A DNA stretch of 64,000 nt from an uncultured Acidobacteriota bacterium (GCA_963756595.1 CAVWOZ010000017.1:26597-90596), one strand, 5' to 3'; numbered from the stretch's first letter, positions 6,475 through 27,680 are shown. Made by a program: numbers and translations. Notes: generated by a model not told the origin, from the sequence alone.

Positions 6475-6590
6475 CGGGGCGTCGGCAGGATATCAGGGGG
6501 CGTCGTCCCCATTCTCCCGCGAGGACGGGAGACGGCGCAAGCGTCCAAAAGGATGAGGTCATCAAAGTCAGCCCGGAGGGCGACCTTCCC

Positions 6591-6656
6591 GTAGCCCAGG
6601 GTGTGAACCCTGGGACCGTCAGCCGCGACCCGCCCAGGGTTTACACCCTGGGCTAC
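6591..6656. repeat. REP-like palindromic hairpin with 24-bp arms
   Basis: GTAGCCCAGGGTGTGAACCCTGGG ... CCCAGGGTTTACACCCTGGGCTAC has one mismatch between arms. The GTAGCCC(R)GG core is shared with the inverted-repeat ends of the MITE-like elements at 16.7 and 24.6 kb. Lies between the desaturase 3' end and the dnaB promoter. Confidence 0.6.
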
Positions 6657-6726
6657 AGGAAGGCCGCCCTATCGGGCTTGCGTTGAGACCGACCGAACGG
6701 CCTACTCTATGGTCGGGGTTTGGGGG

Positions 6727-7746
6727 TTACCGCACGATCGCCCGGAACGGGTACAGGAACTGCCCCACGATCGACCCCAGGGTCCCCAGCCGCCCCGGGT
6801 TCTGCTCGAACGGGAAGTCGTCGTCCTCGATGCCGGTGTCGGGGTACTCGTCGTACCCCCGGTACTGGGTGCCGAACAGGTGGTCCCAGAGGCTGAAGGT
6901 GAGGCCGAAGTTCTTGTCGTGGTGGCGGGGCTCGACCGAGTGGTGCACCCGGTGCGACTGCGGGGTCACCAGCAGGTAGCGCAGCGGCCCGAAGTTGGAG
7001 CGGATATTGGCGTGGTACATCCGGGTGTGCCAGTGGCGGATCCAGACGATGGCGACCACGGTCACGAACGAGGGCTCGACCATGAACAGCGGGATGAATC
7101 CGATCGTATAGATGAACAGGTCGTCCACCGGATGCACCCGGTATTCGGTGAAGAAATTGAGCTCCTTCTGCGAGTGGTGCACGGCGTGGAAGTGCCAGAG
7201 GAAGGTCACCTTGTGCCGCACGATGTGGGTCGCCCAGAAGATCAGGTCGCTGAACAGCAGGGCGAGCACCAGCCGGGCGAGCCAGGGCCAGTGGGTGACG
7301 CTCCGGATCGTCAGGAACCCCAGGTGGCGGTCGTAGAGGAAGCGCAGCAGCGCCAGGTACAGCGGCAGCATCCAGGCATAGATCGCGATCTTGATCACCA
7401 CCCAGAGGAAATCCGCGCGAGCCCCCCGCGTCAGGCTCCCCTGCCCCGCCTTGGCCGGCACCAGCCGCTCGAGCAGGAGCACCAGGGCGAACACCCCATA
7501 GAACCAGGGATTGAGGAAGATCTCCTCGACCAGCGTGCGGTAGAGCGTCCCGTACGTCTCGCCGAACGCCTTGGCGGCGGACGCCTGGAACCCCGCGTCC
7601 CGCCAGGCGTACCAGCCGCCGAGCACGAGCAGCGCCAGGGAGAGCGCCAGCAAGGCGGCCCCGGCGAGGTTCCACCGTGCACCGCCCGTCCGGGACGGCG
7701 CCACCTCGGCCTCGGAAGGTGCCAGCACGGCCTCTGAATCGCCCAT
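6727..7746 (-). CDS. Fatty-acid hydroxylase / sterol desaturase superfamily membrane protein
   Basis: Three histidine boxes (HIVRHK, HAVHHS, HRVHHS) in a multi-TM protein. The longest ORF runs to 7875 but its first 43 aa are low complexity, so the ATG at 7746 (MGDSEAV...) is the more plausible start. Confidence 0.7.
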   Translation of the reverse strand: MGDSEAVLAPSEAEVAPSRTGGARWNLAGAALLALSLALLVLGGWYAWRDAGFQASAAKAFGETYGTLYRTLVEEIFLNPWFYGVFALVLLLERLVPAKAGQGSLTRGARADFLWVVIKIAIYAWMLPLYLALLRFLYDRHLGFLTIRSVTHWPWLARLVLALLFSDLIFWATHIVRHKVTFLWHFHAVHHSQKELNFFTEYRVHPVDDLFIYTIGFIPLFMVEPSFVTVVAIVWIRHWHTRMYHANIRSNFGPLRYLLVTPQSHRVHHSVEPRHHDKNFGLTFSLWDHLFGTQYRGYDEYPDTGIEDDDFPFEQNPGRLGTLGSIVGQFLYPFRAIVR

Positions 7747-7879
7747 CGACGTAAAAAACCTACGGCGCGGGATTTTACCACGGGCTGTGGAGGGAAAAAA
7801 TGGTCCTGGCGCCGCTTCGTTTCCGCCTCGGAAGGGTCCGATCCGCTCGCGCGTTGGCGACAAACAGCCTCCCAACCCT

Positions 7880-8160
7880 TCGCGAGTCCTGTTTCAAGGG
7901 AAATTTCTCGTCCGCGAAGCCTTGCGCGGCTGTTTTCTCGGTTGAAAAGTCTCTTCGCTGAGCTGTTTTTGTCCTCCGCGAAGCTTGTGCAGCTCTCTTC
8001 ACAGCCTCGCGAAGAGGTTTTCAAGCCAGAAAACTCTCCGCACAAGGGACATCAAGGAAGATTTCAAGGCTGACGAGGCGCTCGCGAGGCCTGAAAACGG
8101 CCCGCGCAAGGGAAATTTGTCTTCCGCGCAAGCTTCGCGAGGTCTTGCGGTCTAGTCTCA
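7880..8160. repeat. AT-richer degenerate tandem-repeat region (non-CRISPR)
   Basis: Seven or more imperfect 25-45-bp units of the form T-rich...CGCGAAG / CGCAAGG (for example TTTTCTCGGTTGAAAAGTCTCTTCGCTGAGCTG, TTTTTGTCCTCCGCGAAGCTTGTGCAGCTC, TTTTCAAGCC...CGCACAAGGG). It sits inside a 1.4-kb stretch with no convincing ORF (7750-9160), and local GC is far below the roughly 70% background. Confidence 0.4.
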
Positions 8161-9163
8161 CTGAGGAGCGGAGCCCGATGTTCGGGAGAAACCGCGTGTT
8201 GGATGAGCCATTTTCGACGCTTTCCTGATGCTCCAAAAAGGCCGTCGAAAACGCCCGGCCGCATGCGGCCGTGTGGCAGGCATGCCGACCGGCGCTCTTC
8301 GACGCGACGGCCGCCCGCCTGCTCCTGCTCTCGTTTCCTCGCGAAGCTTCCCCGCCGCCGATCGATGGGCGCGCTCTCCACGAGGACGTTCCCGGGGCCC
8401 GAGCCTGACTGGCGCGTCTGCCTCAGCGACCTGACGGTTGCCGAGGCCGAGCGACGGCGCATTCGCGGACGAGATCGAACCCCCTGCGCCGCGCCATCGG
8501 GGATCGACCGGACAGGCATCGGTCCCCATGCGGAACCCCCGAGATCCCACCGACCTGCCACGTGCCCAGTGGCTCCACGTCCCCATCGCCTCGTCAACCG
8601 AGCAACCTCCGCGCCGGCCCTGGGCACGGCGAGGAGTCCTTCGGACCGCGCACCCCGGAGTGGCCACCGGAGCCTCGCCAGCCTCGCTGAGCTCCTCTAG
8701 GACACCCTCCGCCTCCAGATTCGAGCGCCGCAGCCATTTGAGGAGCCACACCCTTGAGATCGACGAAGAGGCCCTCGGGTCGACGTCTTCCTGAAGCCAC
8801 AACGGCCGCACGAACCGGCCGCGGCTCTTCGTGAAATCCACCGTCCTGCCCTACGAAGAGACGTCCCGCCGTCCCCGTGGCCTGCAGAGGTTCTCGTTAT
8901 GCGCTGGGAACGTCTCTCCGGGACGGTTGCACGAGGTCGGAGCGACGGCGCGTTTCCGGACGTAGGATCGGTCCCCCTGCGGAACCGTCGGGGTCACGAC
9001 GACGTGCCCGTAGAGACGCTCCCAGCGATGAACGAGAACGCGACGCAGGCCATGGGGACGGCGGGCGTCTCTTCGCAGGGCAGGACGCACCGGGATTCGC
9101 GGGCGCCCTGATCTCTGCACCCTCCCGGCTCCGCTCAACCGCACCCATTTCAGGAGAACACCT

Positions 9164-11517
9164 TTGGCGGATGAAACCTTCGACGTCTTCCTGAGCCACA
9201 ACAGCCGCGACAAACCCGCGGTGATCGAGATCGCCGAGGCGCTGCGGCGACAAGCGCGGCCTCAAGGTCTGGCTCGACGACTGGGAGTCTGCCGCCGGGC
9301 CGGCCGCTGGATCGACGGCTCTAGAGGCCGTCCTCAAGACCGTCCGATCGGCGCTGTATTCATCGGCAAGGACGGGCTGGGGCCCTGGGAGACCCCGAGA
9401 TGCGGGCGCCCTGAACGAGATGGTCCGCCGAAGGCTGCCGGTGATCCCCGTCCTTCTGCCTGGGGCGCCGGCGAAGTCTCCCGAGCTCCCCCTCTTCCTA
9501 CCCAGAATCACCTGGGTCGAACTCCGGAGCGGCCTCACCGAGGACGGGCTGGACCGGCTGCAATGGGGAATCACCGGCGAGAAGCCGGAGCTTCGCCGAC
9601 CGTCCCCCGCCCCACCGCCCCCCGCCGCCACAACCTCCCCTTCCCCAGCCTGGGAGACCTCTTCAAAGGGCGCGACGCCGAGCTTCGCACCTTGAGCGAC
9701 GGTCCGGCGACCGCGATCACCCAGGCGCAGACGCTCTTTGGCCTCGGCGGCATCGGCAAGACCCGGCTGGCCGTCGAGCACGCCTGGCGCTCGGGGGACC
9801 GGTACGACAAGGCGCTCTTCGTGGTGGCGGAATCGCCGCAGGCGCTCCGCTCCAACCTGGCGCAGCTCGCCCGGCCGGACCTCCTCGATCTGCCGCAACA
9901 CGAGACGGCCTCCGAAGAGAGCAACGTGGAGGCCGTCCTGGGCTGGCTGCAGGAGCACGACCGGTGGCTGGTGATCCTCGACAACGTGGACACCCCGGAA
10001 GCGGAAAAGGCGGTCCTGGAGATCCTTCCGTCCCTCGCCACGGGGCGCGTCCTCATCACCTCCCGGCTCCGGGAATGGCCGGCGAGCGTCCGGAGACAGC
10101 CGCTCGAGCTCCTCGGCCCGGAAGAAGCCCAGCGTTTCCTCCTGGAGCGCACGGCGAACGACCGCGGAGAGCAGGACGATCCGGAAACCGCCCGCCGGCT
10201 GGCCGAGACGCTGGGGTACCTTCCTCTCGCGTTGGAACAGGCGTCGGCGTACATCGCCCATCACCAGATGAGCCTCTCCGACTATCTGGAGGAGTGGCAA
10301 CGCGAGCGGGAGAAGGTCCTGCGCTGGTACAGAGCAGACGTCATGCAATATCCCGACTCCCTCGCCGTGACCTGGCAAAAGACGTTTCAGCAGCTCAGCC
10401 CCACGGCCGCGACGATCCTCCGCCTGTCCGCCTACCTTGCGCCCGAGCCCATCCCGGTGGAGATGTTCGAGCAGGGGGCGTCGATCGTCGAGGAGTCCGT
10501 CCAAGCCTTTTGCGAGGAAACCGGGGTTGAGGCCGGCGATTCATCGATCCAGTCCGCCCTCGCCGATCTCGCCGCCTTCTCGATGGCGACCCGCGCCGGG
10601 AGCGAGCTTCGTGGTTCACCGGATGGTGCAGGAGGTCCTGAGATCCAGCCTTCCCGAAGAGCACCGGCGAGATTGGATCGAGCGCTCCCTGCGGTTGGTC
10701 AACGATTACTCGCCAGCCGATCCTGATGATGTGCGGACCTGGCCGGTATGGGATCCGCTTGCGGCCGCATGCGGCGGTCGTCGTTCAACATGCCGATGCT
10801 GCCGCCATTTTCAGCCCTACAAGCAGATTGATGATTCAACTGGCGGTCTTTCTGTTGGCAAAATCACTCTACAACGAAGCTGAGCCTTTGATGCGGCGCG
10901 CTCTCGAGATCGATCAACAGGTCTTTGGTGAAAATCATCTAAAGGTCGCGGACTGACTCAACAACCTGGCTCAGTTGCTTAAGGCCACCAACCGCCCGGC
11001 CGAAGCCGAGCCCTTGATGCGGCGCGCCCTCCAGATCGACCAACAAGCCTTCGGTGAAAATCACCCAAACGTCGCCATCCGACTCAACAACTTGGCTCAG
11101 TTGCTTAGGGCTACCCACCGCCTGGACGAAGCTGAGCCCTTGATGGTGCAGGCTCTCCAGATCTTCGAGCAGGCCTTCGGTGAAAATCACCCAAACGTCG
11201 CCATAGAGCTCAGCAACCTGGCTGCGTTGCTTCAGGCCACTAACCGCCTAGCCGAAGCCGAGCCCTTAATGCGGCGCGCCCTCCAGATCGACCAACAAGC
11301 CTTCGGTGAAAATCACCCAAACGTCGCCATCCGACTCAACAACTTGGCTCAGTTGCTTAGGGCTACCCACCGCCTGGACGAAGCCGAGCCCTTGCAGCGG
11401 CACGCTCTGGCCGTCTTTGAACAGAGCCTGGGGCCAGGGCACCCAAACACCGGGATCTTGCGCAGGAACCTGGACGCTCTGCTAGCGGAGATCGCCGCGG
11501 AGTCCCAACAGGGATGA
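9164..11517 (+). pseudogene. Decayed TIR-NB-ARC-TPR (STAND NTPase) gene, copy 1, with multiple frameshifts and an in-frame stop
   Basis: TTG start at 9164 with an AGGAG SD (MADETFDVFLSHNSRDKPAV = TIR N-terminus). The TIR domain is broken by at least two frameshifts; it continues in the ORF at 9420-9695 (MVRRRLPVIPVLLPGAP...LDRLQWGITG). The NB-ARC P-loop GLGGIGKTRLA is intact. Further frameshifts fall near 10610 and 10726, and an in-frame TGA at 10955 interrupts a TPR repeat (KVAD*LNNLAQLL). TPR_10/12 repeats continue to 11517. Confidence 0.7.
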
Positions 11518-11637
11518 GAGGCGCCCATCGGCCTCTCTTCGAAGGGCCAGCCACACCGAAACAGAATCCCCCGGAGAGACACGACGTTCTGGACGCTACT
11601 GTACCCTGCAGCTCATCCTTTTTCAGGAGGCCCACCC

Positions 11638-14263
11638 TTGACGGATGACATCTTCGACGTCTTCCTGAGCCACAACAGCCGCGACAAGCCCGCCGTGATC
11701 CGGATCGCGGAGGCGTTGCGCGACCGCCGCGGCCTCAGGGTCTGGCTCGACGTCTGGGAGCTGCCGCCGGGGCGGCCGTGGCAGGAGGCGCTCGAGACGA
11801 TCCTGCGCACGGTGCGCTCGGCGGCGATCCTGGTCGGGCAGGACGGGCTGGGGCCTTGGGAGATCCCGGAAATGCGGGCGGCGCTGAACGAGATGGTGCG
11901 GCGCCAGATGCCGGTGATCCCCGTGCTGCTCCCGGGCGCTCCGCGCTCTCCGGAGCTCCCGTTCTTCCTGGCCCAGAACACCTGGGTGGACCTGCGCGAC
12001 GGCCTCTCCGAGGAGGGGCTCGACCGGCTGCAATGGGGGATCACGGGGACGCGGCCGCCGCTGCGGCCGGTGCCGTACCGGGCGGTGGCGCCGCGCCTCC
12101 ACAACCTCCCTTTCTCCTCGCTCGGCGACCTGCTCAAGGGGCGCGACGACGAGCTGCGGAGCCTCGACGCGGCGGGGCAGACGACGGCGATCACCCAGGC
12201 GCAGACGATCTCGGGGCTCGGCGGCATCGGCAAGACGCGGCTCGCCGTCGAGTACGCCTGGCGCTCGGGGGAGCGCTACGACGCGGCGTTCTTCGTCGTC
12301 GCCGAGTCGCCGCAGGCGCTGCGCGCCAACCTCGCGCATCTCGGCCGGCCGGAGCTCCTCGACCTGCCGGAGCATGGGACGGCGGCCGAGCAGAGCCTCG
12401 GGGCGGTGCTGCGCTGGCTGCGCGAGCACGAGCGCTGGCTGGTGATCCTCGACAACGTCGACACCCCGGAGGCGCAGGCCGCCGTGATGGAGATCCTGCC
12501 GTCGCTCGCGGCCGGCCGCGTCCTCATCACCTCGCGCATCCGCGACTGGGCGCCGGTCGTCGAGCGCGCAGATCCTCGCACGGCTGGGGCCGGACGAGGC
12601 GCAGCGCTACCTCCTCGACCGCACCGCCGGCGACCGCGTCACGACCGCCGACGACCGCGACCTCGCCGCCCGGCTGGCCGACAAGCTCGGCGGCCTGCCG
12701 CTCGCGCTCGCCCAGGCCGCCGCCTACATCGCCCACTACCAGACGAGCCTCGCCGACTACCTGGAGACCTGGCAGAAGGAGCGCGACGAGGTCCTCACCT
12801 GGCACGACCCCGCCGTGATGCAGTATCCCGCCTCGGTCGCCGCGACCTGGCAGACGACCTTCCGCCAGCTCTGCCCGCGGGCGACCGCCGTCCTCCGCCT
12901 CGCGGCCTTCCTGGCGTCCGATCCCATCCCGGTCGCGATCTTCGAGCAGGGGGAGGCGATCGTCGCCGAGGCGGTGGCGCTGCTCGGCGAGGAGACCGGG
13001 AACCCTCCGGGCGAGCCGACCCTGAAGGACGCGATCGCCGGCCTCGCCGCCTGCTCGCTGGTGACGCGGAAGGAGACGAGCTTCACGGTGCACCGCATGG
13101 TGCAGGAGGTGCTGCGGGCCGGGGTGCCGGCGCGGCGGCGGCGCGACTGGATCGAGCGCTCCCTGCGCCTGGTGGCCGCCTTCTGCCCGGCGGAGTCGGA
13201 CGACGTGCGCACCTGGCAGACCTGGGACGTGCTGCGCCCGCACGCGGCGCGGATCGTGCGCTTCGCGGATCACGAGGGGATCCACCATCCTACCTCGGAG
13301 CTGATGAGCCGCCTCGCGCTCCTCTACTTCAGCAAGGGGCTGGCCGGCGAGGCCGAGCCGCTGATGCGGCGGGCGCTCCAGATCGAGGAGAGCTGCTTCG
13401 GCCCCCAGGACCCGAACGTCGCGAGCCGCCTCAACAACCTCGCCCTCCTCCTCCAGGACACCAACCGCCTGGCCGACGCCGAGCCCCTGCTGCGCCGCGC
13501 CCTGCGCATCGACGAGGCCGCCTACGGCCCGCGCCACCCAGACGTCGCCCGCGACCTCAACAACCTCGCCCAGCTCCTCCACGACGCCGACCGCCCCGCG
13601 GACGCCGAGCCGCTGCTGCGCCGCGCCCTGGCGATCGACGAGCGCGCCTTCGGCCCCACCCACCCGAACGTCGCCATCCGCCTCAACCATCTCGCCCGCC
13701 TCCTCCAGGCGACGGGCCGGCTGGCCGACGCCGAGCCGCTGATCCGGCGCGCCCTCGAGATCGACGAGACCGCCTTCGGCCCGCAGCATCCCGAGATCGC
13801 CATCGACCTCAACAACCTCGCCCAGCTCCTCCAGGCGACCGGCCGCCTCGCCGAAGCCGAGCCGCTGCTGCAACGCGCCCTGGCGATCGACGAGGCCGCC
13901 TGCGGCCCGCAGCACCCGAACGTCGCCATCCGCCTCAACAACCTCGCCCGCCTCTTGAGCGCCGCCGGCCGTCTCCCCGACGCCGAGCCCCTGATGCGCC
14001 GCGCCCTGGAGATCGACGAGCGAACCCTCGGAGCCCACCACCCCGACGTCGCCCTCGTCCTCAACAACCTGGCGCTGCTGCTGGAGGAGACCCACCGCCC
14101 CCACGAGGCCGAGTCCCTGATGCGAAGGGCGGTCGAGATCTTCGAGGGGAGTCTGGGGACGGATCACCCGAAGACGCGGACGGCACGGAAGAATTTGACG
14201 GCGCTGTGCAAGGCGAACGTTTGTGAGGAGGCGGGGGTGGGAGGGGGCGGGACGCAGGGATAG
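11638..14263 (+). CDS. TIR-NB-ARC-TPR STAND NTPase, copy 2, with a single +1 frameshift near 12565
   Basis: TTG start at 11638 with an AGGAG SD (MTDDIFDVFLSHNSRDKPAV). It has an intact TIR domain, a P-loop GLGGIGKTRLAVEYAW, and the RVLITSR (hhhTTR-like) motif. The frame switches from frame 1 to frame 2 at about 12565 (VVER | QILARLGPDEAQRYLL), then continues intact to 14263 with about eight kinesin-light-chain-type TPR repeats (AEAEPLxRRALxIDExxxGPxHPNVAxxLNNLAxLL). Collinear with copy 1. Confidence 0.75.
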
Positions 14264-14348
14264 GGCTTTGGCAGGATTGGGTTTCGCCGATCCGGAGGGC
14301 TTCCTGATTCGGCTCGTCGGCGCCGCCGCCGGGCCCTCACTCCCCCGG

Positions 14349-14507
14349 CCCCTCTCTCCCCGCCGCCCTCCCGTCCGACCGGGAGAGAGGGGAGAACTGC
14401 TTGATTAGAAAGCCGGCGGGACGCCGGCGCTCCCAGGAGGGCAAACCCGCGATCGTAGGGCCCCCCTCTTCTCCCGGCGGGCTGGGGGGGAGGCGGGGAG
14501 AAGAGGG
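14349..14507. repeat. Pair of GC-rich hairpins (REP-like or terminator) downstream of TIR-STAND copy 2
   Basis: Hairpin 1: CCCCTCTCTCCCC, 19-nt loop, GGGAGAGAGGGG (14349-14392). Hairpin 2: CCCTCTTCTCCCG ... CGGGGAGAAGAGGG (14464-14507). A further palindrome CCGGCCGCCACTGGCGGCGGCCGG lies at about 14590. Confidence 0.5.
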
Positions 14508-14634
14508 TCGGGGTGATGAGGGTCAACGCCCCGAGAACGCCAACGCCGAACGGTTCGACCGCCGCCGAGGGTTATAGTTCCCCAGATCTCCGGCCGCCAC
14601 TGGCGGCGGCCGGAAGGACACGGGAGGGCGTGCG

Positions 14635-16640: not shown

Positions 16641-16700
16641 GGGTTCTCGGGTCTCCGCGGAGGAATATACCCGAGGTGTCAAGGGGGAGAGCTCGCAGGG

Positions 16701-16845
16701 CCCCGCCCGGGCATGAATGCCCGGGCTACAGTGGAAACGAAAAGCCGGCTGAAGCCGGCTCCGAAATCAAGGTTTCTCCTCCAGGAGCCGGGTTCACCCG
16801 GCTTTTTGGTCGCAGCGTAGCCCGGGCATTCATGCCCGGGCGGGG
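16701..16845. repeat. MITE-like palindromic element, copy A (about 145 bp, 29-bp perfect terminal inverted repeats)
   Basis: The inverted-repeat ends are CCCCGCCCGGGCATGAATGCCCGGGCTAC and GTAGCCCGGGCATTCATGCCCGGGCGGGG. Internal sub-hairpins are AGCCGGCTGAAGCCGGCT and AGCCGGGTTCACCCGGCT. About 85% identical to the copy at 24597-24739. Confidence 0.65.
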
Positions 16846-16895
16846 CCATGCCACCTCCTTCACGAGGTAGGAAGCCGCCAGCCGTGGGAGCCTTT

Positions 16896-18771: not shown

Positions 18772-19928
18772 GATGCAACCGCCTGACACTCCGGACCCTG
18801 ACTGCGCTCCTCGCCCTGCTCCTGCTCGCCGCCGCCGGCTGCAAGAAGGGAGGCGACGCCGCCGCCAAAACGGGGAAAGATGGCAAGCCCGCTCTCCCTC
18901 CCACCATGGCGCTCGGCCCCGAGGACACGGCAGTGGTGACGCCGGGCGCGGTCGAGAACGGCCCGGCCCTCACCGGCACGCTGACGGCGCAGCGCCAGGC
19001 GTCGATCCGCGCCCAGATCGCCGGGTCGGTGCTGACGGTGACCGCCGAGCCCGGGCAGGCGGTGACCAGGGGCGAGACCCTCGCCCGCCTCGATTCGAGC
19101 TCGCTGACCGACGCCTACAACTCGGCGCGCTCGAACGCCGCCAGCGCCAAGAGCGCCCTGGCGGTCGCCGAGCGCGAGGCGGCGCGCCAGGAGACGCTGG
19201 TCAAGGCGGGCGCGGTGGCGCAGAGGAACGTCGAGACGGCGCAGCAGTCCGTGGTGCAGGCGCGGGCCACCCTCTCCCAGGCCCAGGCGCAGATCGCCAG
19301 CGCCGAAAAGCAGCTCGCCAACACCACCGTCACGGCCCCGTTCTCCGGGGTGGTCAGCGAGCGGCCGGTGTCGGCCGGCGACGTGGTGCAGCCCGGCACC
19401 AGCCTCTACACGGTGGTCGATCCGTCGAGCCTCCAGCTCGAGGCGGCGATCCCCGCCGAGCAGCTCGCCTCGCTCAAGGTGGGGTCGCCGGTGCGCTTCA
19501 CCATCACCGGCTACGGCGACCGCACCTTCAAGGGAGCGATCACGCGGATCAATCCGAGCGCCGACCCCACCACCCGCCAGGTGCGGGTCTACGCCGAGAT
19601 CCCCAACCCGGGCGGCCTGGTGGCCGGCCTCTACGCCGAGGGGCGGGTGGAGAGTGAGTCGCGCCACGGGCTGACCCTGCCGATGGCGGCGATCGACCGC
19701 CGGATGGCGAAGCCGGCGGTGCTCCTGGTGCGCGACGGCAAGGTGGCGCGGGTCGACGTCGAGCTCGGCCTCGCCGACGAGAAGGCGCAGCGGGTCGAGG
19801 TGCTGCGCGGCGTCGCGGCCGGCGACGTGGTCCTCCTCGGCGCCGCGCAGGAGATCGCGCCGGGGACGCCGGTGACCCTGCCGCCGTCGGTGCAGCAGGC
19901 GGCGGAGAGGCTGGCGCAGACGCTATGA
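18768..19928 (+). CDS. RND efflux membrane fusion protein (HlyD/AcrA family), lipoprotein
   Basis: ATG at 18768 with a lipobox LLAAAGC. Biotinyl-lipoyl-like hairpin (TVTAPFSGVV) and beta-barrel domains. The 905-aa ORF listed from 17211 is a spurious upstream extension in the same frame. Confidence 0.8.
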   Translation: MRCNRLTLRTLTALLALLLLAAAGCKKGGDAAAKTGKDGKPALPPTMALGPEDTAVVTPGAVENGPALTGTLTAQRQASIRAQIAGSVLTVTAEPGQAVTRGETLARLDSSSLTDAYNSARSNAASAKSALAVAEREAARQETLVKAGAVAQRNVETAQQSVVQARATLSQAQAQIASAEKQLANTTVTAPFSGVVSERPVSAGDVVQPGTSLYTVVDPSSLQLEAAIPAEQLASLKVGSPVRFTITGYGDRTFKGAITRINPSADPTTRQVRVYAEIPNPGGLVAGLYAEGRVESESRHGLTLPMAAIDRRMAKPAVLLVRDGKVARVDVELGLADEKAQRVEVLRGVAAGDVVLLGAAQEIAPGTPVTLPPSVQQAAERLAQTL

Positions 19929-22900
19929 CGATCTCCGATTTCGCCATCAAGCGCCCGATCGTCACCGTGGTGGTGATGCTGGCGCTGGTCATCTTCGGCA
20001 TCTTCGCCCTCTTCCAGATCGACGTCGACGAGTTCCCCGACCTCTCGAACCCGATCGTCTTCGTCTCCGTCCCCTACCCCGGCGCCTCGCCGTCGCAGGT
20101 CGAGCAGGAGGTGGTGGAACGGATGGAGGAGGCGTTCAGCGGCCTGTCGGGGATCGACGAGATCCGCTCCACCTCGCTCGACGGCTTCGCCACCATCACC
20201 GTGCAGTTCGTCTTCGGCAAGGACCCCGACCAGGCGGCGCAGGACGTGCGCGACGCCATCTCGGGGATCCGCAACGACCTGCCGACCGAGATGAAGGAGC
20301 CGGTGCTCAAGAAGTTCGACCCCGACGACTTCCCCATCGTCTCGCTCGTCCTCGCCTCCGACCGCCTGTCGCCGGCCGAGATGACCCTGCTCGCCGACCC
20401 CGGGATCACCCGCGTCCTGCGCGGCATCAACGGCGTCGCGCAGGTGACGGTGGTCGGCGGCGCCGACCGCGAGATCTCGGTCGACATCCGGCCGAACGAC
20501 ATGGCGGCGTCGGGGGTGACGGTGTCGCAGGTCTTCGCGGCGGTCGCGGCGCAGAACCTGGCGTCGCCGGTCGGCCAGCTCCAGGGGCGGCTGACCGAGC
20601 AGGCGATCCGCCTGCGCGGCCGGCTCGAGACCCCCGAGGACTTCGCGCGGCTGGTGGTCGGCTCGCACAACGGCCAGCTCATCCGCCTCGGCGAGGTGGC
20701 GAACGTGCGCGACGGCACCACCGAGCAGCGCTCGCTCGCCCTCTTCAACGGCCAGCTCGCGGTCGGCATCGACATCACCAAGTCGAAGGGGGCGAGCACC
20801 ACCAAGGTCGCCGACGCCATCAAGGCGGCGATCCAGAAGATCCAGCCCACCCTGCCGCCGGGGGTGAAGATGTCGGTGGTGCGCGACGCCGGCGAGCGGG
20901 TGCGCCAGTCGGTGCGCAACGTCGAGGAGGCGCTGATCGAGGGCGCTCTCCTCACCGTGCTGGTGGTCTTCGTGTTCCTCAACTCCTGGCGCTCGACGGT
21001 GATCACCGGCCTCGCGCTGCCGGTCTCCGTGCTCAGCTCCTTCATCGCGGTGTGGGCCTGCGGCTTCACGCTCAACACCATGTCTCTCCTCGGCCTCTCG
21101 CTCGCCATCGGCATCCTGATCGACGACGCCATCGTGGTGCGGGAGAACATCGTGCGCCACGTCGAGATGGGCAAGGACCACATGGAGGCGGCGCACGTCG
21201 GCACCAACGAGATCACCATGGCGGTGGCGGCCACCACCTTCTCGATCGTGGCGGTGTTCGCGCCGGTCGCCTTCATGCAGGGGATCGCCGGGCAGTGGTT
21301 CAAGCCGTTCGCGCTGACCATCGCCTGCGCCGTTCTCGTCTCCCTCTTCGTCTCCTTCTCGCTCGACCCGATGCTCTCCGCCTACTGGCCGGACCCGCAG
21401 CTCGAGGCGCACGAGCGGAAGAACGTGATCGCGCGGGCGCTCGACCGCTTCAACCAGTGGTTCGACCGCATGGCCGACCGCTACAAGGGGCTGGTCGCCT
21501 GGGCGCTCGACCACCGGCTGGCGGTGCTGGCGATCGTGGCGGTGTCGTTCTTCGGGGCGATCGCCCTCCAGGTCTTCTTCGGCGGCGGCGGCTTCATCCC
21601 GGACAGCGACCGCTCGGAGATCACCCTGTCGATCGAGACCCCGCCGGGGTCGAACCTGAGCTACACGGCGATCAAGGCGCGCGAGCTCTCCGCCATCGCC
21701 CGCACCCACAAGGAAGTGGCCTACACCTACACCAGCATCGGCAGCGCCACCGGCTCGGGGGACGTCGACACCGGCAGCCTCTACATCAAGATGGTGCCCA
21801 AGAAGCAGCGCGACATCTCGCAGCAGGCGCTCGCCGCCCAGCTGCGCACCGAGACGGCGCGGGTCGCCGGCGTCACCACCTACCTCTCGCAGCAGGGGGG
21901 GCCGGGGGGCAACCAGCGGCAGATCCAGGTGCAGCTGCGCGGCCAGAACATGGCGAGCCTCAGCAAGGCGGCGCTGGCGATCGAGGGTGAGATGCGCAAG
22001 GTCAAGGGGGCGACCGACATCGGCCTCTCCACCCGCGGCGACCGCCCCGAGCTCGAGGTGCAGCTCAACCGCGGCCTCGCCGGCAGCCTGGGGCTCAACG
22101 TCAGCCAGGTGGCGCAGTCGATGCGCCCCGCCTTCGCCGGCGTCAAGGCGGGAGACTGGATCGATCCCCTCGGCAAGACCCGCGACGTCACCGTCCGCCT
22201 CGCCCCCGAGGCGCGGGCGAACGTCGCCGACATCGAGAGGCTGCCGCTGGTGGTGAGCGGCGGCGGCTCGGCGGCGGCGGCGGCTCAGGGCGGCGCGGCG
22301 GGCTGCGGCGGGAGCGGCGGCAGGCGCCCCGATCGCGTCCGGCGGCGGCGCGCCGTCGCTGATCCCGCTCGGCCAGGTGGCGACGATCACCAACAGCACC
22401 GGCCCGGCGCAGATCGATCACCTCGACCGCGACAAGGTGGTGACGGTGGGGGGCAACGTCGCCGGGCGCTCGCTCTCCGAGGTGACGCGCGACCTCAACA
22501 AGCGGGTGGCGAAGCTCCACCTGCCGGCCGGCGTCTCCCTGTCGCAGGGGGGCGAGGTGAAGAACCAGAACGAGGTCTTCGGCAAGATCTTCGCCGCCCT
22601 GGCCCTCGCCGTGCTGATGATGTACCTGATCCTGGTCGTCCAGTTCGGCTCGTTCCTCGACCCGCTGGCGATCCTCCTCTCGCTGCCGCTGTCGCTGGTC
22701 GGCGTCGTGCTGATGCTGCTGATCACCCACGACACCCTCAACCTGATGAGCCTGATCGGCGTCATCCTCCTGATGGGGATCGTGGCCAAGAACGCCATCC
22801 TGCTGATCGACTTCGCGAAGTGGAACCACGAAAAGGGGATGCCGCTGCGCGACGCCCTGATCGAAGCCGGCCGCGTCCGCCTCCGCCCCATCCTGATGAC

Positions 22901-23149
22901 CACCGTCGCCCTCATCGCCGGCATGATCCCCGTCGCCATGGGGCTCGGCGAAGGCGCCGACTTCCGCGCCCCGCTCGGCCGCGCGGTGATCGGCGGCACC
23001 ATCACCTCGACCCTGCTCACCTTGCTGGTGATCCCGACGATCTACGAGATTTTGGTGGAGACGCGGGAGAAGGTCTTGGGGTGGTTCGGGCGGGGGAAGA
23101 AGGCGGGGGCGGCGGCCACCCCGGAAGCCGCCGTGGTGAAGTCTTGAAA
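19925..23149 (+). CDS. RND efflux pump (AcrB/HAE1 family), frameshifted at about 22260-22330
   Basis: The N-terminal 780 aa are in frame 2 (MTISDFAIKRPIVTVVVML...). The C-terminal roughly 270 aa, including TM7-12 and the RND C-terminus, are in frame 0 (ORF 22377-23147; ...APSLIPLGQVATITNSTGPAQIDHLDRDKVVTVGGNVAGRSL...). The switch falls inside a GGC/GCG-repeat tract encoding an unusual Gly/Ala-rich insert (VVSGGGSAAAAAQGGAAG...). Confidence 0.8.
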
Positions 23150-23202
23150 CCGACACGCCGGTGACCCCGGCGGCAGGGCGGCAGGGAGATCGGGGCCGCC
23201 CA

Positions 23203-24761: not shown

Positions 24762-27680
24762 CTACGGCCGCGCCGACACCCCGCTCACCGTCCGCGCCGT
24801 CAGCCCGGGCCGTCCGGTCACCGCCACGTCGATCTTGCTCCAGGCCGCGGGGGGGGCGGTGTCCTTGGGGTAGAAGGCGACGGTGTACTGGCTGCGCAGC
24901 TCGGAGAGGATCTGGCCGTAGACGTTCGCCAGGTTCTGGTTGGGGTGGATGAAGTAGACCTGGCCGCCTCCCGCCTGGGCGAGGCGCTCGAACTTGGCGG
25001 CGGCGGGCTCGGTGAGGAAGCCGCCGTCGTCGCCGTGCTCCTCGCGGGGGTTCGAGACGATCAGGTAGATGGGGACGCCGCTCTCGCGGGCGGCTTTGAG
25101 GCAGGCCGGGAAGGAGGCGTGCTCGGCCTCGTCGATGCCGTCCGAGTAGATCACCAACGCCTTGCGCCCCGAGATCCCCTGCAGCTGGCCGAGCGAGTAG
25201 GTGATGGCGTCCCAGAGCGCGGTGCCGCCGTCGGGCTGGAGCTGGTCGAGGGCGGCGGCGACCGAGGCGAGGTCGCGGGTCACCGGGCGGACCAGCCGGG
25301 CCTTGGAGTCGAAGTCGACCAGCATCGCGCGGTCGCGAGAGGCGAGGCCGGTGTCGAGGAGCGCGGCGACGGCCTTCTTCACGTCGGGGAGCTTGAGGAA
25401 CATGCTGGCCGAGGAGTCGATGGCGAGCGCCAGGGTGAGCGGCAGCTCGCCGGCGTTCTCGAAGGCGGCGATCTCCTGCGGCTCGCCGTCCTGGCGGACC
25501 TGGAAGGCCTCCTTGGGCAGCCCGGGGACCGGCTTGCCGCCGGCGTCGGTCACCACCACGGCGAGCTGGATCAGGCGGACGTCGATGCGCGCCCCGAGGT
25601 CCGAGGCGTTCAAGGTGATGGCGTCCTCGGCGGTCGAGCCGTCGTCGAGCATGGCCGCCGCCCGCAGGTACCCCTCGGAGCGCTGCCGCGGCACCTTCAC
25701 GGGATAGCGGAAGGGGGGCTCGTAGAGGGTCGCCGCCAGCTCGTCGTTCCAGTAGAGCTCCACCTTCTCGATCCGCCGGCCGGCGGGGACCCGCACGTCG
25801 GCTTCGACGTTCACCGTCCCCACGCCGCGCCGGCTGGCGGGCTCGACGATGCGGACGCCGAAGCTGCCGGCGGGCTCGTTCAAGCGCACGGCGTCGTGGG
25901 CCACCACTTTCCCCGCGGCGTCGTAGGCGATCCCCTGCACGACCTGCGGCCGGGCGCGGCGGCCGAGGTCGAGCTCGGCGTCGCAGGGGACCGTCGCGCA
26001 GGTCGCGGCGCGCCTCCCCTCGAGCTTGACCTCGACCCTGGCGATCCCCGTCCCCTCGCCGTTCACCCGCAGCCGGACCTTGCCGGTCAGCGCGGTGCCG
26101 GCGGGGGGGATCAGGCGGATGCCGGAGCGGACGTTGAGCACCGCGTCGGCCTCCGGCAGCGGGCCGGCCAGGCTCACCACCTGCCCGCCCCACGGGCCGC
26201 CGCTCAGCGGCTCGAGCAGCACGGCGACGACATCCCCCTCGGGGAGGGGGATGCCGAGGTGATAGACCCCCGGCTCGGTCCCAGCGCGGTCGGCGGCGGC
26301 GAGGAGGTGATGGAACGCGCCGCCGGTCAACCCCGCGACGGTGACGCGCAGCGGGCCGGCGGGGATCTTCGGCGACTCGACCCGGAGGTCGAGGATCGCC
26401 CGCCGCTCGCTGCTCCCGGCCGCCGCCGCCGCAGGTGCAGACGTGTCCGGCTGGAGATGGGCGGAGATCTCGAGGCCGAGCCCCTCCTCCTCGTCGGCCA
26501 GGAGGTGGGCGGCGCGCGCCGCGCCCACGGCCCCGGGGATGCCGGCGACGTCCCAGCGCCGCGCCTTGACCACCAAGTCCGGCCGCGAGGTGAGGACCTC
26601 GAGCGGGAGCGGGCGGCCGTCGACCGGGAGAGGCGCCTCCCAGCGGACGGTCGAGCGGGCGCGCAGGTGGACCAGGGCGCCGGCCAAGGCCGAAGCCTGG
26701 AGGACCATCTCGCCGCCGGTCGCCTCGGCCATCCAGGTGAGCGGCTGCTGCGGCGCGAGGAGGGCGGGGGGCGGCGCGGGCTGGTCGGGGGACGGCTCTT
26801 TGCGGCGGTCGAGGGTGATGGTGCCGCCGATGGGCGCTTTGAGGGTCGAGCGCGGCTTGACCCGCCGCAGGTCCGGGAGGGTCGAGTCCCCCATCGGCAC
26901 GGGGATCACCGTCCAGCCGAGCGCCGCGACGGTCCGCGCGATCTCGAGCCCGGCCGTCTCGAGGGCACCCGCGGCCGGCTTCTCCCCGGGCGACAGGAGC
27001 TCGGTGCGGTAGAACTTCGCCGGATCGACGTCGTAGCCGTCGCTGACCAGGAAGACGGCGCGCGGCCCGGTGCCCCCTTGCGCCAGCAGCCACTCGGCGA
27101 AGGCGTCCTGCTGCCGGCGGACCACGTGCACCTCGGAGTCGATCGCCGCCGCGGCCCGGGCGGCGGGGTCGTCCCCCTCCCCCTTCTCGGGGCGTTCGTC
27201 GCGGAAGCGGCGGCGGAGGGCGCGCAGGTCGTCCCGCCCCTCGCTCTCCAGCCAGAGCTTGGAGAGCGCCTCGTCGATCGCCTGCACGTCGCGGGTGGGG
27301 GCGAGCGCCACCCGCGGCTGCGGCTCGGCCACCACCACCTCGACGGTCCCCAGCGCGGCGAGCGTCCGCGCCTGCTCGGCGAGGGTACCGGCGGCGGCGC
27401 GCAGGGTGCGCGAGCCGGAGAGGACGCGGTCGGCCCAGATGACGATCCGCCACGGCTGGTTGACCGGCGTGAGCGCCGTCACCGGCCAGGGCTTGCCGTT
27501 CTCGACCACGGTGAGGTCGTTGACCCCCACCGTGCGCGGCGCCTCCCCCTGGCGGTCGAGGATGAGGACGGGAAGCTCGCGAACGGTGGGGGTGGCGGCA
27601 GGAGAATCCTGGGTCTGCGCGGGAGAGGAGAGGATGCTGGGGGCGAGGAGGACGGCGAGGGAGAGCGGCTTGAGATTCAC
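24762..27680 (-). CDS. Secreted protein with two von Willebrand factor type A domains
   Basis: Signal peptide MNLKPLSLAVLLAPSILSSPAQT. C-terminal VWA with a MIDAS motif (LALAIDSSASM ... GGTALWDAI ... LVIYSDGID) and an N-terminal VWA-like region (IVIWADRV...VFLVSDGYD). Confidence 0.7.
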   Translation of the reverse strand: MNLKPLSLAVLLAPSILSSPAQTQDSPAATPTVRELPVLILDRQGEAPRTVGVNDLTVVENGKPWPVTALTPVNQPWRIVIWADRVLSGSRTLRAAAGTLAEQARTLAALGTVEVVVAEPQPRVALAPTRDVQAIDEALSKLWLESEGRDDLRALRRRFRDERPEKGEGDDPAARAAAAIDSEVHVVRRQQDAFAEWLLAQGGTGPRAVFLVSDGYDVDPAKFYRTELLSPGEKPAAGALETAGLEIARTVAALGWTVIPVPMGDSTLPDLRRVKPRSTLKAPIGGTITLDRRKEPSPDQPAPPPALLAPQQPLTWMAEATGGEMVLQASALAGALVHLRARSTVRWEAPLPVDGRPLPLEVLTSRPDLVVKARRWDVAGIPGAVGAARAAHLLADEEEGLGLEISAHLQPDTSAPAAAAAGSSERRAILDLRVESPKIPAGPLRVTVAGLTGGAFHHLLAAADRAGTEPGVYHLGIPLPEGDVVAVLLEPLSGGPWGGQVVSLAGPLPEADAVLNVRSGIRLIPPAGTALTGKVRLRVNGEGTGIARVEVKLEGRRAATCATVPCDAELDLGRRARPQVVQGIAYDAAGKVVAHDAVRLNEPAGSFGVRIVEPASRRGVGTVNVEADVRVPAGRRIEKVELYWNDELAATLYEPPFRYPVKVPRQRSEGYLRAAAMLDDGSTAEDAITLNASDLGARIDVRLIQLAVVVTDAGGKPVPGLPKEAFQVRQDGEPQEIAAFENAGELPLTLALAIDSSASMFLKLPDVKKAVAALLDTGLASRDRAMLVDFDSKARLVRPVTRDLASVAAALDQLQPDGGTALWDAITYSLGQLQGISGRKALVIYSDGIDEAEHASFPACLKAARESGVPIYLIVSNPREEHGDDGGFLTEPAAAKFERLAQAGGGQVYFIHPNQNLANVYGQILSELRSQYTVAFYPKDTAPPAAWSKIDVAVTGRPGLTARTVSGVSARP

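What the first reader, a model, noticed from the sequence alone, without database searches (positions are those of the whole stretch)
9164..14263. Tandem TIR-NB-ARC-TPR (STAND/NLR-like) genes: one fossil copy and one near-intact copy
Two collinear genes share the architecture TIR (DVFLSHNSRDKPAV...), NB-ARC (GLGGIGKTRLAVE..., LVILDNVDT, RVLITSR), then TPR_10/12 repeats. TIR-STAND proteins of this kind act in other bacteria as NAD+-consuming antiphage or abortive-infection sensors. Both use a TTG start 10-12 nt after an AGGAG SD, which argues that they are real genes. Copy 1 carries at least four frameshifts and an in-frame TGA. Copy 2 has one +1 shift near 12565. The pair sits in a 6.5-kb segment bounded by an AT-richer repeat region and hairpins next to dnaB, consistent with a small defense or accessory island.
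Basis: partly seen in the sequence, partly recalled or inferred. Interest (0 to 1): 0.65.

Follow-up and report, generated by a model that had tools for sequence, protein, structure and literature searches.

The report
Two decaying bacterial TIR-NLR-like genes
Two side-by-side copies of a bacterial "NLR-like" immune-type gene (TIR enzyme + NB-ARC switch + TPR sensor) sit here in an Acidobacteria genome. One is a dead fossil and the other is broken by a single extra base. It is an ordinary case of a common, already catalogued gene family being lost.

Summary
Window 9164-11517 and 11638-14263 (+) are tandem paralogues (66% aa identity) with the architecture TIR_2 / NB-ARC / DUF7779 / TPR_10-12.

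Copy 2 differs from an intact 878-aa orthologue (91% identity, Acidobacteriota MAG) by one frame-breaking lesion, an extra G at 12568. It shows no relaxed selection (dN/dS 0.22). The lesion is therefore very recent or an assembly error.

Copy 1 is a true pseudogene. It has 8-12 one- or two-base indels in the TIR/linker (9248-9602), frameshifts at 10601 and 10758, an in-frame TGA at 10954, and one TPR unit missing.

In the related MAG both copies are intact at the same dnaB / zf-UBP locus. A third, more distant MAG carries a single, independently dead copy there.

The family is very large (1,556 50%-identity cluster representatives at E<=1e-30). It has been described computationally (TIR-AP-ATPase-TPR; NCBIfam fxsT), but it matches no experimentally validated defence-system model. 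An antiphage NADase role is an inference.

The one mildly unusual feature is that lesions concentrate in the TIR core in both dead genes, while the NB-ARC stayed under purifying selection. The hairpin upstream of copy 1 belongs to a dispersed palindromic repeat family and is not a specific element.

The parts
9164..11517 (+). Copy 1: pseudogene of a TIR / NB-ARC / DUF7779 / TPR (5 x 42-aa units) STAND protein. It is the orthologue of the intact 829-aa P0037 in L001.
   Evidence: Overall nt identity to L001 7387-9876 is 88%.
9248..9602 (+). Lesion-dense TIR-core/linker tract of copy 1, with 8-12 one- or two-base indels. It is only about 68% identical to the orthologue, while the flanking parts of the gene are 91-95% identical.
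   Evidence: Binomial P=1.6e-4 for the clustering.
10601..10601 (+). +1 frameshift in copy 1 (winged-helix/DUF7779 region).
10758..10758 (+). +1 frameshift in copy 1 (before the TPR array).
10954..10956 (+). In-frame TGA in the TPR array of copy 1. The orthologue has GAT here.
11638..14263 (+). Copy 2: TIR (aa 8-131) / NB-ARC (190-369) / DUF7779 (407-496) / 7 TPR units. It is 874 aa once one base is removed, and is the orthologue of the intact 878-aa P0001 (91% identity).
12568..12568 (+). Single inserted G (GAGCGC[G]CAGATC). It is the only frame-breaking lesion of copy 2 and falls between the RNBS-B (TSR) and GLPL motifs of the NB-ARC.
11869..11871 (+). Codon for E78 of copy 2, the predicted catalytic glutamate. 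W74 lies 4 residues upstream, as W204/E208 do in AbTir.
9152..9156 (+). Shine-Dalgarno AGGAG of copy 1 (TTG start at 9164).
11625..11630 (+). Shine-Dalgarno AGGAGG of copy 2 (TTG start at 11638).
8739..8815 (+). Degenerate 5' stub of a further TIR gene (SD-like GAGGAG, TTG, and a remnant of ...DVFLSHN..R). The same stub is better preserved in L001 at 6965-7045.
8842..9087 (.). A ~245-nt near-perfect hairpin, 77 nt upstream of the copy 1 start. It belongs to a dispersed palindromic (MITE/REPIN-like) repeat family.
   Evidence: (dG -186 kcal/mol, z -12.4).
8433..8559 (+). Partial, degenerate second copy of the inner part of the same repeat.
   Evidence: (D15).

Best explanation
These are two tandem paralogues of a single-protein STAND/NLR-like system in an Acidobacteriota (Thermoanaerobaculia-like) chromosome. 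Each has an N-terminal TIR NAD+-cleaving effector, a central NB-ARC (AP-ATPase) nucleotide switch with a winged-helix region, and a C-terminal kinesin-light-chain-type TPR sensor.

Inferred mechanism, by analogy with Apaf-1, plant TNLs and bacterial Avs/TIR-NLR:
1. The TPR array binds a trigger, most likely a phage protein.
2. The NB-ARC exchanges nucleotide and oligomerises.
3. This brings TIR domains together to form composite active sites.
4. The active sites cleave NAD+ or make cyclic ADPR-type products, giving growth arrest or abortive infection.

In this genome the system is being lost.
- Copy 1 is dead. Its TIR core carries a block of indels, most simply explained by replacement or conversion with a diverged, already broken TIR cassette. 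Three recent downstream lesions follow.
- Copy 2 carries one extra G in the NB-ARC. As written, that truncates the protein to TIR plus half an ATPase followed by out-of-frame sequence.

What is shown: architecture, motifs, orthology, and the positions of the lesions.
What is inferred: NADase activity, the trigger, the antiphage role, and the conversion origin of the TIR lesions.
For: Domains and motifs:
- Domain profiles are above Pfam cutoffs.
- In 95 homologues the P-loop G192-L-G-G-x-G-K198 and Walker B D272 are invariant. The TSR, GLPLAL and VHRM motifs are at least 90% conserved, as are W74 and E78.
- E78 and W74 align to catalytic E208 and W204 of AbTir, PDB 7UWG. The roles of those residues are taken from 10.1101/2022.05.07.491051.

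Structure:
- The AlphaFold model of orthologue P0001 has pLDDT 89.6 and pTM 0.72.
- Its TIR + NB-ARC part matches the plant TNL RPP1 (7dfv/7crc), Apaf-1 (1z6t) and NRC2. Its TPR part matches kinesin light chain.

Orthology and synteny:
- L001 has both genes intact at the same dnaB / zf-UBP locus.

Lesions:
- Copy 2 has a single frame-breaking indel and dN/dS 0.22 against its orthologue.
- Copy 1 lesions are.
- The copy 1 NB-ARC block is 95% identical to its orthologue (dS 0.13, dN/dS 0.26). On its own branch it has 7 synonymous and 2 nonsynonymous changes. Its TIR core is only about 68% identical, with sharp boundaries at nucleotide-conserved motifs.

Precedent:
- A TIR-NLR single-gene system protects E. 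coli from phages (PMC9122126).
- TIR + AP-ATPase + TPR proteins have been described as conflict-system effectors (PMC7159879).
Against: - No experimentally validated defence model matches. PADLOC returns only weak TIR-domain hits with E>=4e-9.
- No other defence genes, integrase or tRNA flank the pair in the window.
- No homologue was found in 50,697 phage records.
- No donor for the TIR-core tract was found; the best database identity was 70%.
- The frameshift in copy 2 could be an assembly error. Another gene in the window (AcrB-like, 22257-22322) is out of frame relative to a 99.45%-identical strain.
Confidence: 0.8

Rival explanations
1. Assembly artefact. The extra G in copy 2, and possibly the indel cluster in the copy 1 TIR core, are consensus or polishing errors in a metagenome-assembled genome. 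In the organism one or both genes would then be intact and functional.
For: - Copy 2 shows no sign of relaxed selection, and it has exactly one lesion, inside a GCGCGC run next to a GATC site.
- The AcrB-like gene has five indels within 70 nt of a (GGC)n stretch and is out of frame, whereas the 99.45%-identical strain L126 is in frame.
- The relatives come from MAG projects.
- The TIR module is multi-copy in these bacteria, with 10,281 representative proteins at E<=1e-10. Multi-copy modules invite mis-polishing.
Against: - About 8 kb of flanking genes (MlaD/E/F, alr, dnaB, response regulator-oxidoreductase) have ORF lengths equal or close to those in L001.
- The copy 1 tract also carries about 30% substitutions, which consensus error does not produce.
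- The most paralogue-conserved 90 nt at the 5' end, where mis-mapping would be worst, are clean and 95% identical to the orthologue.
- Copy 1 also has a TGA and a clean 126-nt unit deletion.
Confidence: 0.3
2. Not an antiviral sensor. The genes are stand-alone relatives of the TIR-AP-ATPase-TPR ('fxsT') component of FxSxx-COOH / vWA-MoxR ternary conflict or signalling systems, or a STAND regulator like AfsR or MalT. On this reading they respond to an endogenous peptide or metabolite signal.
For: - NCBIfam equivalog NF040586 FxSxx_TPR scores 350 bits against a cutoff of 300.
- Homologues are annotated fxsT on plasmids and in MAGs.
- Kaur et al. 2020 describe exactly this architecture downstream of FxSxx peptide-processing systems.
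Against: - No radical-SAM/SPASM, metallopeptidase, MoxR or FxsA-like gene was found among the genes scanned around the pair: the four on each side in the window, and ORFs in the corresponding variable regions of L001 and L003.
- The nearest vWA protein (24762-27680) is 10 kb away beyond an RND efflux operon.
- There is no DNA-binding domain.
- The conserved catalytic TIR argues for an effector role, not a regulator.
Confidence: 0.15
3. After losing its TIR, copy 1 persisted as a functional TIR-less NB-ARC-TPR protein. It could have served as a sensor or helper partner, or a decoy, for copy 2, as in paired plant NLRs. It was lost only recently.
For: - Lesions are non-uniform: 8 or more of 11 fall in the first 19% of the gene (P=1.6e-4). 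In L003, 11 of 13 do (P=5e-7).
- The NB-ARC block has 7 synonymous and 2 nonsynonymous changes on its own branch.
- The indels in the TIR tract sum to a multiple of 3, so the NB-ARC stays in frame with the TTG start, and ORF 9164-10726 is open. The same holds for L003 apart from one TAG.
Against: - A net-zero frame has a 1-in-3 chance per gene.
- Open out-of-frame ORFs are common at 70% GC. For example, the wrong frame of copy 2 runs 552 codons.
- A single recent import of a dead TIR cassette explains the same data without any function.
- The synonymous divergence of the tract (dS 0.63 against 0.13) shows a different history, not just a longer decay.
- No expression data are available.
Confidence: 0.12

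Closest known systems
TIR-AP-ATPase(NB-ARC)-TPR proteins of FxSxx-type systems (NCBIfam NF040586 'fxsT'; Kaur, Burroughs, Iyer & Aravind 2020, PMC7159879)
   Same: Same three-part architecture. The HMM score is above the curated cutoff. Homologues carry this name in public records.
   Different: The pair stands alone. No FxsA peptide, FxsB radical-SAM maturase, metallopeptidase or vWA-MoxR partner lies nearby. Only model positions 10-370 of 830 make up the best match.
E. coli P4-satellite 'TIR-NLR' defence gene (Rousset et al. 2022, PMC9122126)
   Same: A single polypeptide with an N-terminal TIR and a STAND NTPase. It is experimentally antiphage. This is the best functional precedent.
   Different: No PADLOC model of a known system matched beyond the TIR domain, so there is no detectable family-level relationship. 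The host phylum differs, and the locus is chromosomal, not on a satellite.
Avs/AVAST antiviral STAND ATPases (Gao et al. 2020, 2022)
   Same: Effector - STAND NTPase - TPR-like sensor logic, with oligomerisation on binding a phage protein.
   Different: No Avs model hit. The ATPase here is the NB-ARC/AP-ATPase clade. The sensor is a regular 42-aa TPR_10/12 array.
Plant TIR-NLRs (RPP1, ROQ1) and TIR-NB-ARC-TPR 'TNP' proteins (PMC9806590)
   Same: The TIR + NB-ARC fold matches RPP1 (Foldseek E about 2e-10 over about 546 columns). The catalytic Glu and the alphaC Trp are present. TNPs share the TPR C-terminus.
   Different: Sequence identity is 14-15%. The gene is bacterial, with no EDS1-type downstream pathway. 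In TNLs the sensor is LRR.
Bacterial NACHT proteins (bNACHT; Kibby et al., 10.1101/2022.07.19.500537)
   Same: NLR-like tripartite logic. Some members are antiphage.
   Different: Walker B here reads LVILDNVDT, which does not fit the NACHT D[GAS]hDE signature quoted. Pfam assigns NB-ARC, not NACHT.

Membership tests
TIR domain NADases (Pfam TIR_2) | Profile match above the gathering score | tested here: met
   Copy 2 scores 80.9 bits and reconstructed copy 1 scores 61.6 bits, against a cutoff of 28. The uncorrected copy 1 ORF gives no TIR hit.
TIR domain NADases (Pfam TIR_2) | Catalytic glutamate, with the alphaC tryptophan 4 residues before it (AbTir W204/E208) | tested here: met
   Copy 2 W74/E78 align to the AbTir DWTNYE motif. 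Both residues are at least 90% conserved in 95 homologues. In copy 1 the GAG codon survives, but single-base deletions flank it at 9393 and 9407.
TIR domain NADases (Pfam TIR_2) | NAD+ cleavage activity | not testable with these tools
   This needs an enzyme assay on an intact orthologue such as P0001.
NB-ARC / AP-ATPase clade of STAND NTPases | Profile match, plus Walker A GxxGxGK[T/S], Walker B hhhhD, and RNBS-B (TSR), GLPL and MHD-like motifs | tested here: met
   NB-ARC scores 34.1 bits (copy 2) and 35.7 bits (copy 1), against a cutoff of 23.5. The motifs GLGGIGKT, LVILDNVD, ITSR, GGLPLAL and VHRM are present and conserved.
NB-ARC / AP-ATPase clade of STAND NTPases | NBD-HD-WHD fold like Apaf-1 and plant NLRs | tested here: met
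   The model of P0001 (pLDDT 89.6) matches RPP1, Apaf-1 and NRC2 at probability 1.00.
FxSxx-COOH system TPR protein (NCBIfam NF040586, equivalog) | HMM score above the curated cutoff | tested here: met
   350.2 bits against a cutoff of 300.
FxSxx-COOH system TPR protein (NCBIfam NF040586, equivalog) | Genomic association with the FxsA precursor, the FxsB radical-SAM/SPASM maturase, a metallopeptidase and vWA-MoxR genes | tested here: not met
   The flanking genes are Mla, alr, dnaB and a fatty-acid hydroxylase on one side, and zf-UBP, a response regulator-oxidoreductase and an RND efflux operon on the other. None of the system genes is present in the L001 or L003 variable regions either.
Validated defence systems in PADLOC-DB v2 (Avs1-5, bNACHT, TIR-NLR, Thoeris, etc.) | Match to a system protein model over more than the TIR domain | tested here: not met
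   The only hits are to TIR-containing models, over aa 2-69 at best (E 4e-9 to 4e-3).
NACHT clade | D[GAS]hDE signature after Walker B | tested here: not met
   The sequence reads D-N-V-D-T. There is no NACHT Pfam hit.
Defence island / mobile island | Clustering with other defence genes, or integrase, tRNA or att boundaries; content that varies between strains | tested here: inconclusive
   Variable content is met. Between the window, L001 and L003 the interval differs by a 2.1-kb block, a 6.9-kb block, a Phd-PIN toxin-antitoxin pair, and copy number. Clustering and mobility markers are not met. The only tRNA is at 30436, and the flanking genes scanned gave no recombinase/integrase domain.

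The most novel reading that the evidence does not exclude
In these Acidobacteria the TIR core may behave as an exchangeable cassette. It is bounded by two nucleotide-conserved anchors: the 5' FDVFLSHNS segment and the HNLPF segment. Ectopic conversion between the many TIR paralogues, including dead ones, would then swap effector cores. On this reading, NLR-like genes are switched off, and perhaps back on (the L001 copy 1 carries a different, intact core), by cassette exchange and not by gradual decay. The NB-ARC-TPR sensor is preserved in the meantime.
Probability: 0.15. Interest if true: 0.5.

Novelty: new member of a known kind. Interest (0 to 1): 0.25.

Why it matters
The finding matters little by itself. 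It adds one more example of TIR-STAND (NLR-like) genes in an under-studied soil phylum. It also shows three states at one syntenic locus: both copies intact, one dead and one nicked, and a single dead copy. That pattern illustrates the rapid gain and loss expected of costly immune genes.

Two points may be useful:
1. The intact orthologues P0001 and P0037 are good candidates for testing whether this very abundant TIR-NB-ARC-TPR family, which is not covered by the PADLOC models tried here, is truly antiviral.
2. Damage concentrated in the TIR core, alongside a conserved sensor, could inform how effector modules of NLR-like proteins turn over.

Tried and rejected
1. Hairpin as a dedicated regulatory element or ncRNA. 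The ~245-nt hairpin upstream of copy 1 looked promising. It is conserved upstream of TIR-STAND genes in L001 and in the unrelated locus L002, with compensatory arm changes. I rejected the idea because:
- its 26-mer occurs in at least 120 metagenome stretches, often several per contig;
- only 5 of 122 loci have any TIR-STAND similarity nearby, and one of those (L052) is the same locus as L002;
- Rfam has no match in the window.

2. A third full copy. tblastn of copy 2 against the whole window finds none. Only a 5' stub at 8739-8815 is present.

3. Programmed frameshift in copy 2. The site has no slippery sequence or stalling stop, and all three close orthologues are in frame there.

4. A shared frameshift hot spot between copy 2 and L003. 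The sites are about 7 codons apart and in different sequence, so this is coincidence.

5. Finding the source contig, or another assembly covering copy 2.
- Exact-product look-ups failed for three ORFs.
- The near-identical strain contig L126 starts 20 nt before the copy 2 stop.

6. Finding the donor of the copy 1 TIR core. The best database identity is 70%.

7. A short-motif array in the low-GC stretch at 7880-8160. It is not above chance.

8. Shared ancestry of the copy 1 and L003 TIR lesions. The tracts are 66% identical with different indels, so the lesions are independent.

9. Phage or plasmid origin. There is no phage hit. The plasmid hits are distant (no more than 44% identity) fxsT-like genes.

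Full report
**What is in the sequence**

The window is about 70% G+C. The six-frame ORF list and a three-frame translation show two collinear genes on the + strand.

Copy 2 starts at TTG 11638, 7 nt after AGGAGG.
- It reads in one frame up to ...RVLITSRIRDWAPVVER.
- It continues in the +1 frame from QILARLGPDEAQRY... to the stop at 14263.
- Removing one G from GAGCGC[G]CAGATC at 12568 restores an 874-aa protein.

Copy 1 starts at TTG 9164, 7 nt after AGGAG. Its reading frame has to be pieced together from all three frames.

**Domain identity**

For the repaired copy 2, Pfam gives:
- TIR_2, aa 8-131, 80.9 bits;
- NB-ARC, aa 190-369, 34.1 bits against a cutoff of 23.5;
- DUF7779, aa 407-496;
- TPR_12 and TPR_10, 310 and 210 bits, as seven 42-aa units.

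The frameshift-corrected copy 1 gives the same set with five TPR units. The uncorrected ORF 9164-10726 retains only the NB-ARC hit.

NCBIfam places copy 2 in NF040586, 'FxSxx-COOH system TPR protein', at 350 bits against a cutoff of 300. PADLOC returns only weak hits to TIR-containing models over the first about 70 residues. No Avs, bNACHT, TIR-NLR or Thoeris system model matches beyond that.

**Lesions**

I mapped copy 1 in two ways:
- a frameshift-aware protein-to-DNA dynamic-programming alignment against copy 2;
- a DNA alignment to its orthologue in locus L001.

Both agree on the following:
- single-base indels at 9248, about 9283-9288, 9306, 9311-9316, 9351-9353, and 9393-9407;
- a possible compensated pair at 9500/9509;
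- a 2-nt insertion near 9600;
- +1 at 10601-10604;
- +1 at 10758;
- an in-frame TGA at 10954-10956;
- one missing 126-nt TPR unit.

Copy 1 and copy 2 are 66% identical in protein.

Aligned to its orthologue, copy 2 has exactly one indel that is not a multiple of three, the G at 12568.

**Relatives and organism**

A protein search found 2,366 hits at E<=1e-10 among the 8,000 candidates scored.
- The best is P0001: 878 aa, 91% identity, intact.
- Many hits come from Thermoanaerobaculia/Acidobacteriota MAGs. Sources name them 'tetratricopeptide repeat protein' or 'FxSxx-COOH system TPR protein'.

A genome scan returned three loci.

*L001* is an uncultured Acidobacteriota MAG.
- Its flanks are 92.7% identical to the window.
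- It carries both genes intact in tandem: 829 aa (P0037) and 878 aa (P0001). They lie between the same dnaB side and zf-UBP side genes.

*L003* is another Acidobacteriota MAG.
- Its flanks are 83% identical to the window.
- It has a single copy at the same locus, and that copy is also dead: a TAG at codon 36, ten frameshifts between codons 61 and 155, and two more downstream.

*L002* has an intact copy in a different genomic context.

The interval between dnaB and zf-UBP is therefore variable.
- The window has an extra about 2.1 kb, comprising the fatty-acid hydroxylase gene 6727-7875 and repeats.
- The window lacks about 6.9 kb of CarboxypepD_reg/TonB-receptor genes that are present in L001 and L003.
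- L003 has a Phd/YefM-PIN pair.

No integrase or other recognisable defence gene is present in the window interval. The only tRNA is at 30436.

**Active-site and structural checks**

In an alignment of 95 homologues:
- the P-loop (G192, L193, G195, G197, K198) and Walker B D272 are invariant;
- TSR, GLPLAL and VHRM are at least 90% conserved;
- so are W74 and E78.

phmmer against PDB sequences aligns copy 2 PWEIPE to AbTir DWTNYE (7UWG). In AbTir, E208 is the catalytic residue (E208A is inactive). W204, four residues upstream, is needed for ADPR cyclisation (10.1101/2022.05.07.491051). The effector is therefore predicted to be catalytically competent, and possibly a cyclase.

AlphaFold on the alignment, for P0001, gave pLDDT 89.6 and pTM 0.72. 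Foldseek against the PDB matched:
- the TPR array to kinesin light chain (35-40% identity);
- the TIR + NB-ARC part to the plant TNL RPP1, to Apaf-1 and to NRC2.

Walker B reads D-N-V-D-T. This does not fit the NACHT D[GAS]hDE signature.

**How old are the lesions?**

Copy 2 against P0001 has dN/dS 0.22, with no relaxation downstream of the frameshift (TPR 0.18). The G insertion is therefore very recent, or not real.

Copy 1 is heterogeneous.
- Its NB-ARC/WH block is 95% identical to L001 (dS 0.13, dN/dS 0.26).
- Polarised with copy 2 sequences as outgroup, that block has 7 synonymous and 2 nonsynonymous changes on its own branch.
- Its first 90 nt and the region after the HNLPF motif are 95% and 91% identical to L001.
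- The 360 nt between them are only 68% identical to L001, 75% to copy 2 and 66% to L003. The dS there is 0.63.

Synonymous divergence cannot rise fivefold simply because constraint was lost. The TIR core of either the window copy or the L001 copy must have a different origin. The boundaries fall at nucleotide-conserved motifs that all paralogues share.

The lesions cluster in this tract: at least 8 of 11, binomial P=1.6e-4. In L003, 11 of 13 cluster in the same part of the gene (P=5e-7). The two tracts are independent, because they share no indels.

The simplest reading is that the TIR core was replaced by ectopic conversion from a diverged, already broken paralogue. A few later lesions then followed. 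This TIR type is extremely multi-copy and is fused to many architectures:
- 25,634 representative proteins at E<=1e-3;
- 1,556 at E<=1e-30;
- many are 65-74% identical over the TIR alone.

I could not find a donor; the best identity was 70%. This step remains an inference.

**Could it be an artefact?**

About 8 kb of flanking genes keep ORF lengths equal or close to those in L001, so the assembly is not globally noisy.

However, the AcrB-like gene is split between two frames.
- Pfam model positions 1-785 lie in the frame of ORF 19925-23164, and positions 793-1019 lie in ORF 22377-23147.
- The break is inside a (GGC)n loop.
- A strain that is 99.45% identical (L126) is in frame there.

Local indel noise therefore cannot be excluded for the single G in copy 2. 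For copy 1 an artefact is unlikely. Its tract also carries about 30% substitutions, and the gene additionally has a nonsense codon and a clean unit deletion.

**Upstream region**

A ~245-nt near-perfect hairpin (8842-9087; dG -186 kcal/mol, z -12.4) lies 77 nt upstream of copy 1.
- It is conserved in L001.
- A diverged version with compensatory arm changes lies upstream of the L002 gene.

This looked like a dedicated element. It is not.
- Its terminal 26-mer occurs in at least 120 metagenome stretches, several per contig.
- Only 5 of 122 loci show TIR-STAND similarity nearby.

It is a dispersed MITE/REPIN-like palindromic repeat.

Just upstream, at 8739-8815, is a degenerate 5' stub of another TIR gene (SD, TTG...DVFL..HN..). 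It is better preserved in L001 at 6965-7045. It is probably the remnant of a deleted third copy.

**Comparison with known systems**

The architecture is the TIR-AP-ATPase-TPR protein that Kaur et al. (PMC7159879) described next to FxSxx peptide-processing/vWA-MoxR systems. NCBI names it fxsT. Here none of the partner genes is present, so the context-defined membership fails even though the HMM criterion is met.

The best functional precedents share the logic but not detectable family membership:
- the single-gene TIR-NLR of P4 satellites (PMC9122126);
- Avs proteins.

**Verdict**

This is a new, decaying instance of a known and very abundant kind. The antiviral NADase role is plausible but untested for this family. 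The modestly interesting residue is the damage confined to the TIR core alongside a conserved sensor, seen twice independently.

Noticed in passing
window 19925-23164 (break at 22257-22322): The AcrB-like RND transporter gene is split between two frames inside a (GGC)n Gly/Ala-rich loop. A 99.45%-identical strain (L126, ENA ERZ25039594 contig_15053) is in frame there. This is either a second real frameshift or local assembly indel noise.
   Followed up: yes
window 8842-9087 (partial copy 8433-8559); L001 7065-7307; L002 9705-9945; L004-L123: A family of ~245-nt near-perfect hairpins, dispersed in soil Acidobacteria metagenomes (at least 120 stretches, several per contig). Each arm is about 65 nt and is bounded by AGAGACG...CGTCTCT (BsmBI-like sites). 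The arms occur in two arrangements, with spacing of about 195 nt or 122-179 nt. The family is MITE/REPIN-like. No associated transposase was identified.
   Followed up: partly
window 8739-8815; L001 6965-7045: A 5' stub of a further TIR gene (SD + TTG + about 18 codons) lies immediately upstream of the hairpin repeat. It is probably the remnant of a deleted third tandem copy.
   Followed up: partly
L003 9992-12501: A single TIR-NB-ARC-TPR gene at the syntenic locus in a more distant MAG is independently dead. It has a TAG at codon 36, ten frameshifts in codons 61-155, and only two more in the remaining about 670 codons. The ten TIR-region shifts sum to zero.
   Followed up: yes
L003 9228-9850 (-): A Phd/YefM antitoxin - PIN toxin pair sits between dnaB and the TIR-STAND pseudogene in L003. 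It is absent from the window and from L001.
   Followed up: partly
window 6577-6670; L001 6355-6520: A 38-nt-arm inverted repeat (CCCAGGGT..ACACCCTGGGCTACAGG) lies just downstream of dnaB. The arms are conserved in L001, but there they are separated by about 95 nt instead of 18 nt. Similar 'CCCTGGG' palindromes recur near 16680-16870. This looks like a REP-like family.
   Followed up: no
window 7750-8250: A lower-GC (0.57) non-coding stretch lies upstream of the fatty-acid hydroxylase gene. It contains a 29-nt direct repeat (7895-7923 and 8107-8135). A wider motif array was not above chance. Part of the stretch is conserved in L001 at 6861-7017.
   Followed up: partly
window 14334-14522: A 53-nt-arm imperfect inverted repeat (75% complementary) lies between the end of copy 2 and zf-UBP. 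In L001 and L003, 6.9-8 kb of outer-membrane receptor genes lie at this position. It may be a deletion scar or another repeat element.
   Followed up: no
window 37685-63891 (-): A large non-ribosomal peptide synthetase cluster (C-A-T modules; ORFs of 1551, about 2200, 2183 and 2774 aa). An MFS transporter and a TauD-like dioxygenase lie nearby.
   Followed up: no
L001 17536-19606 (-): The TonB-dependent receptor in L001 appears split between two overlapping frames: Plug in one and the beta-barrel in another. This suggests frameshifts, or errors, also occur in that MAG.
   Followed up: no
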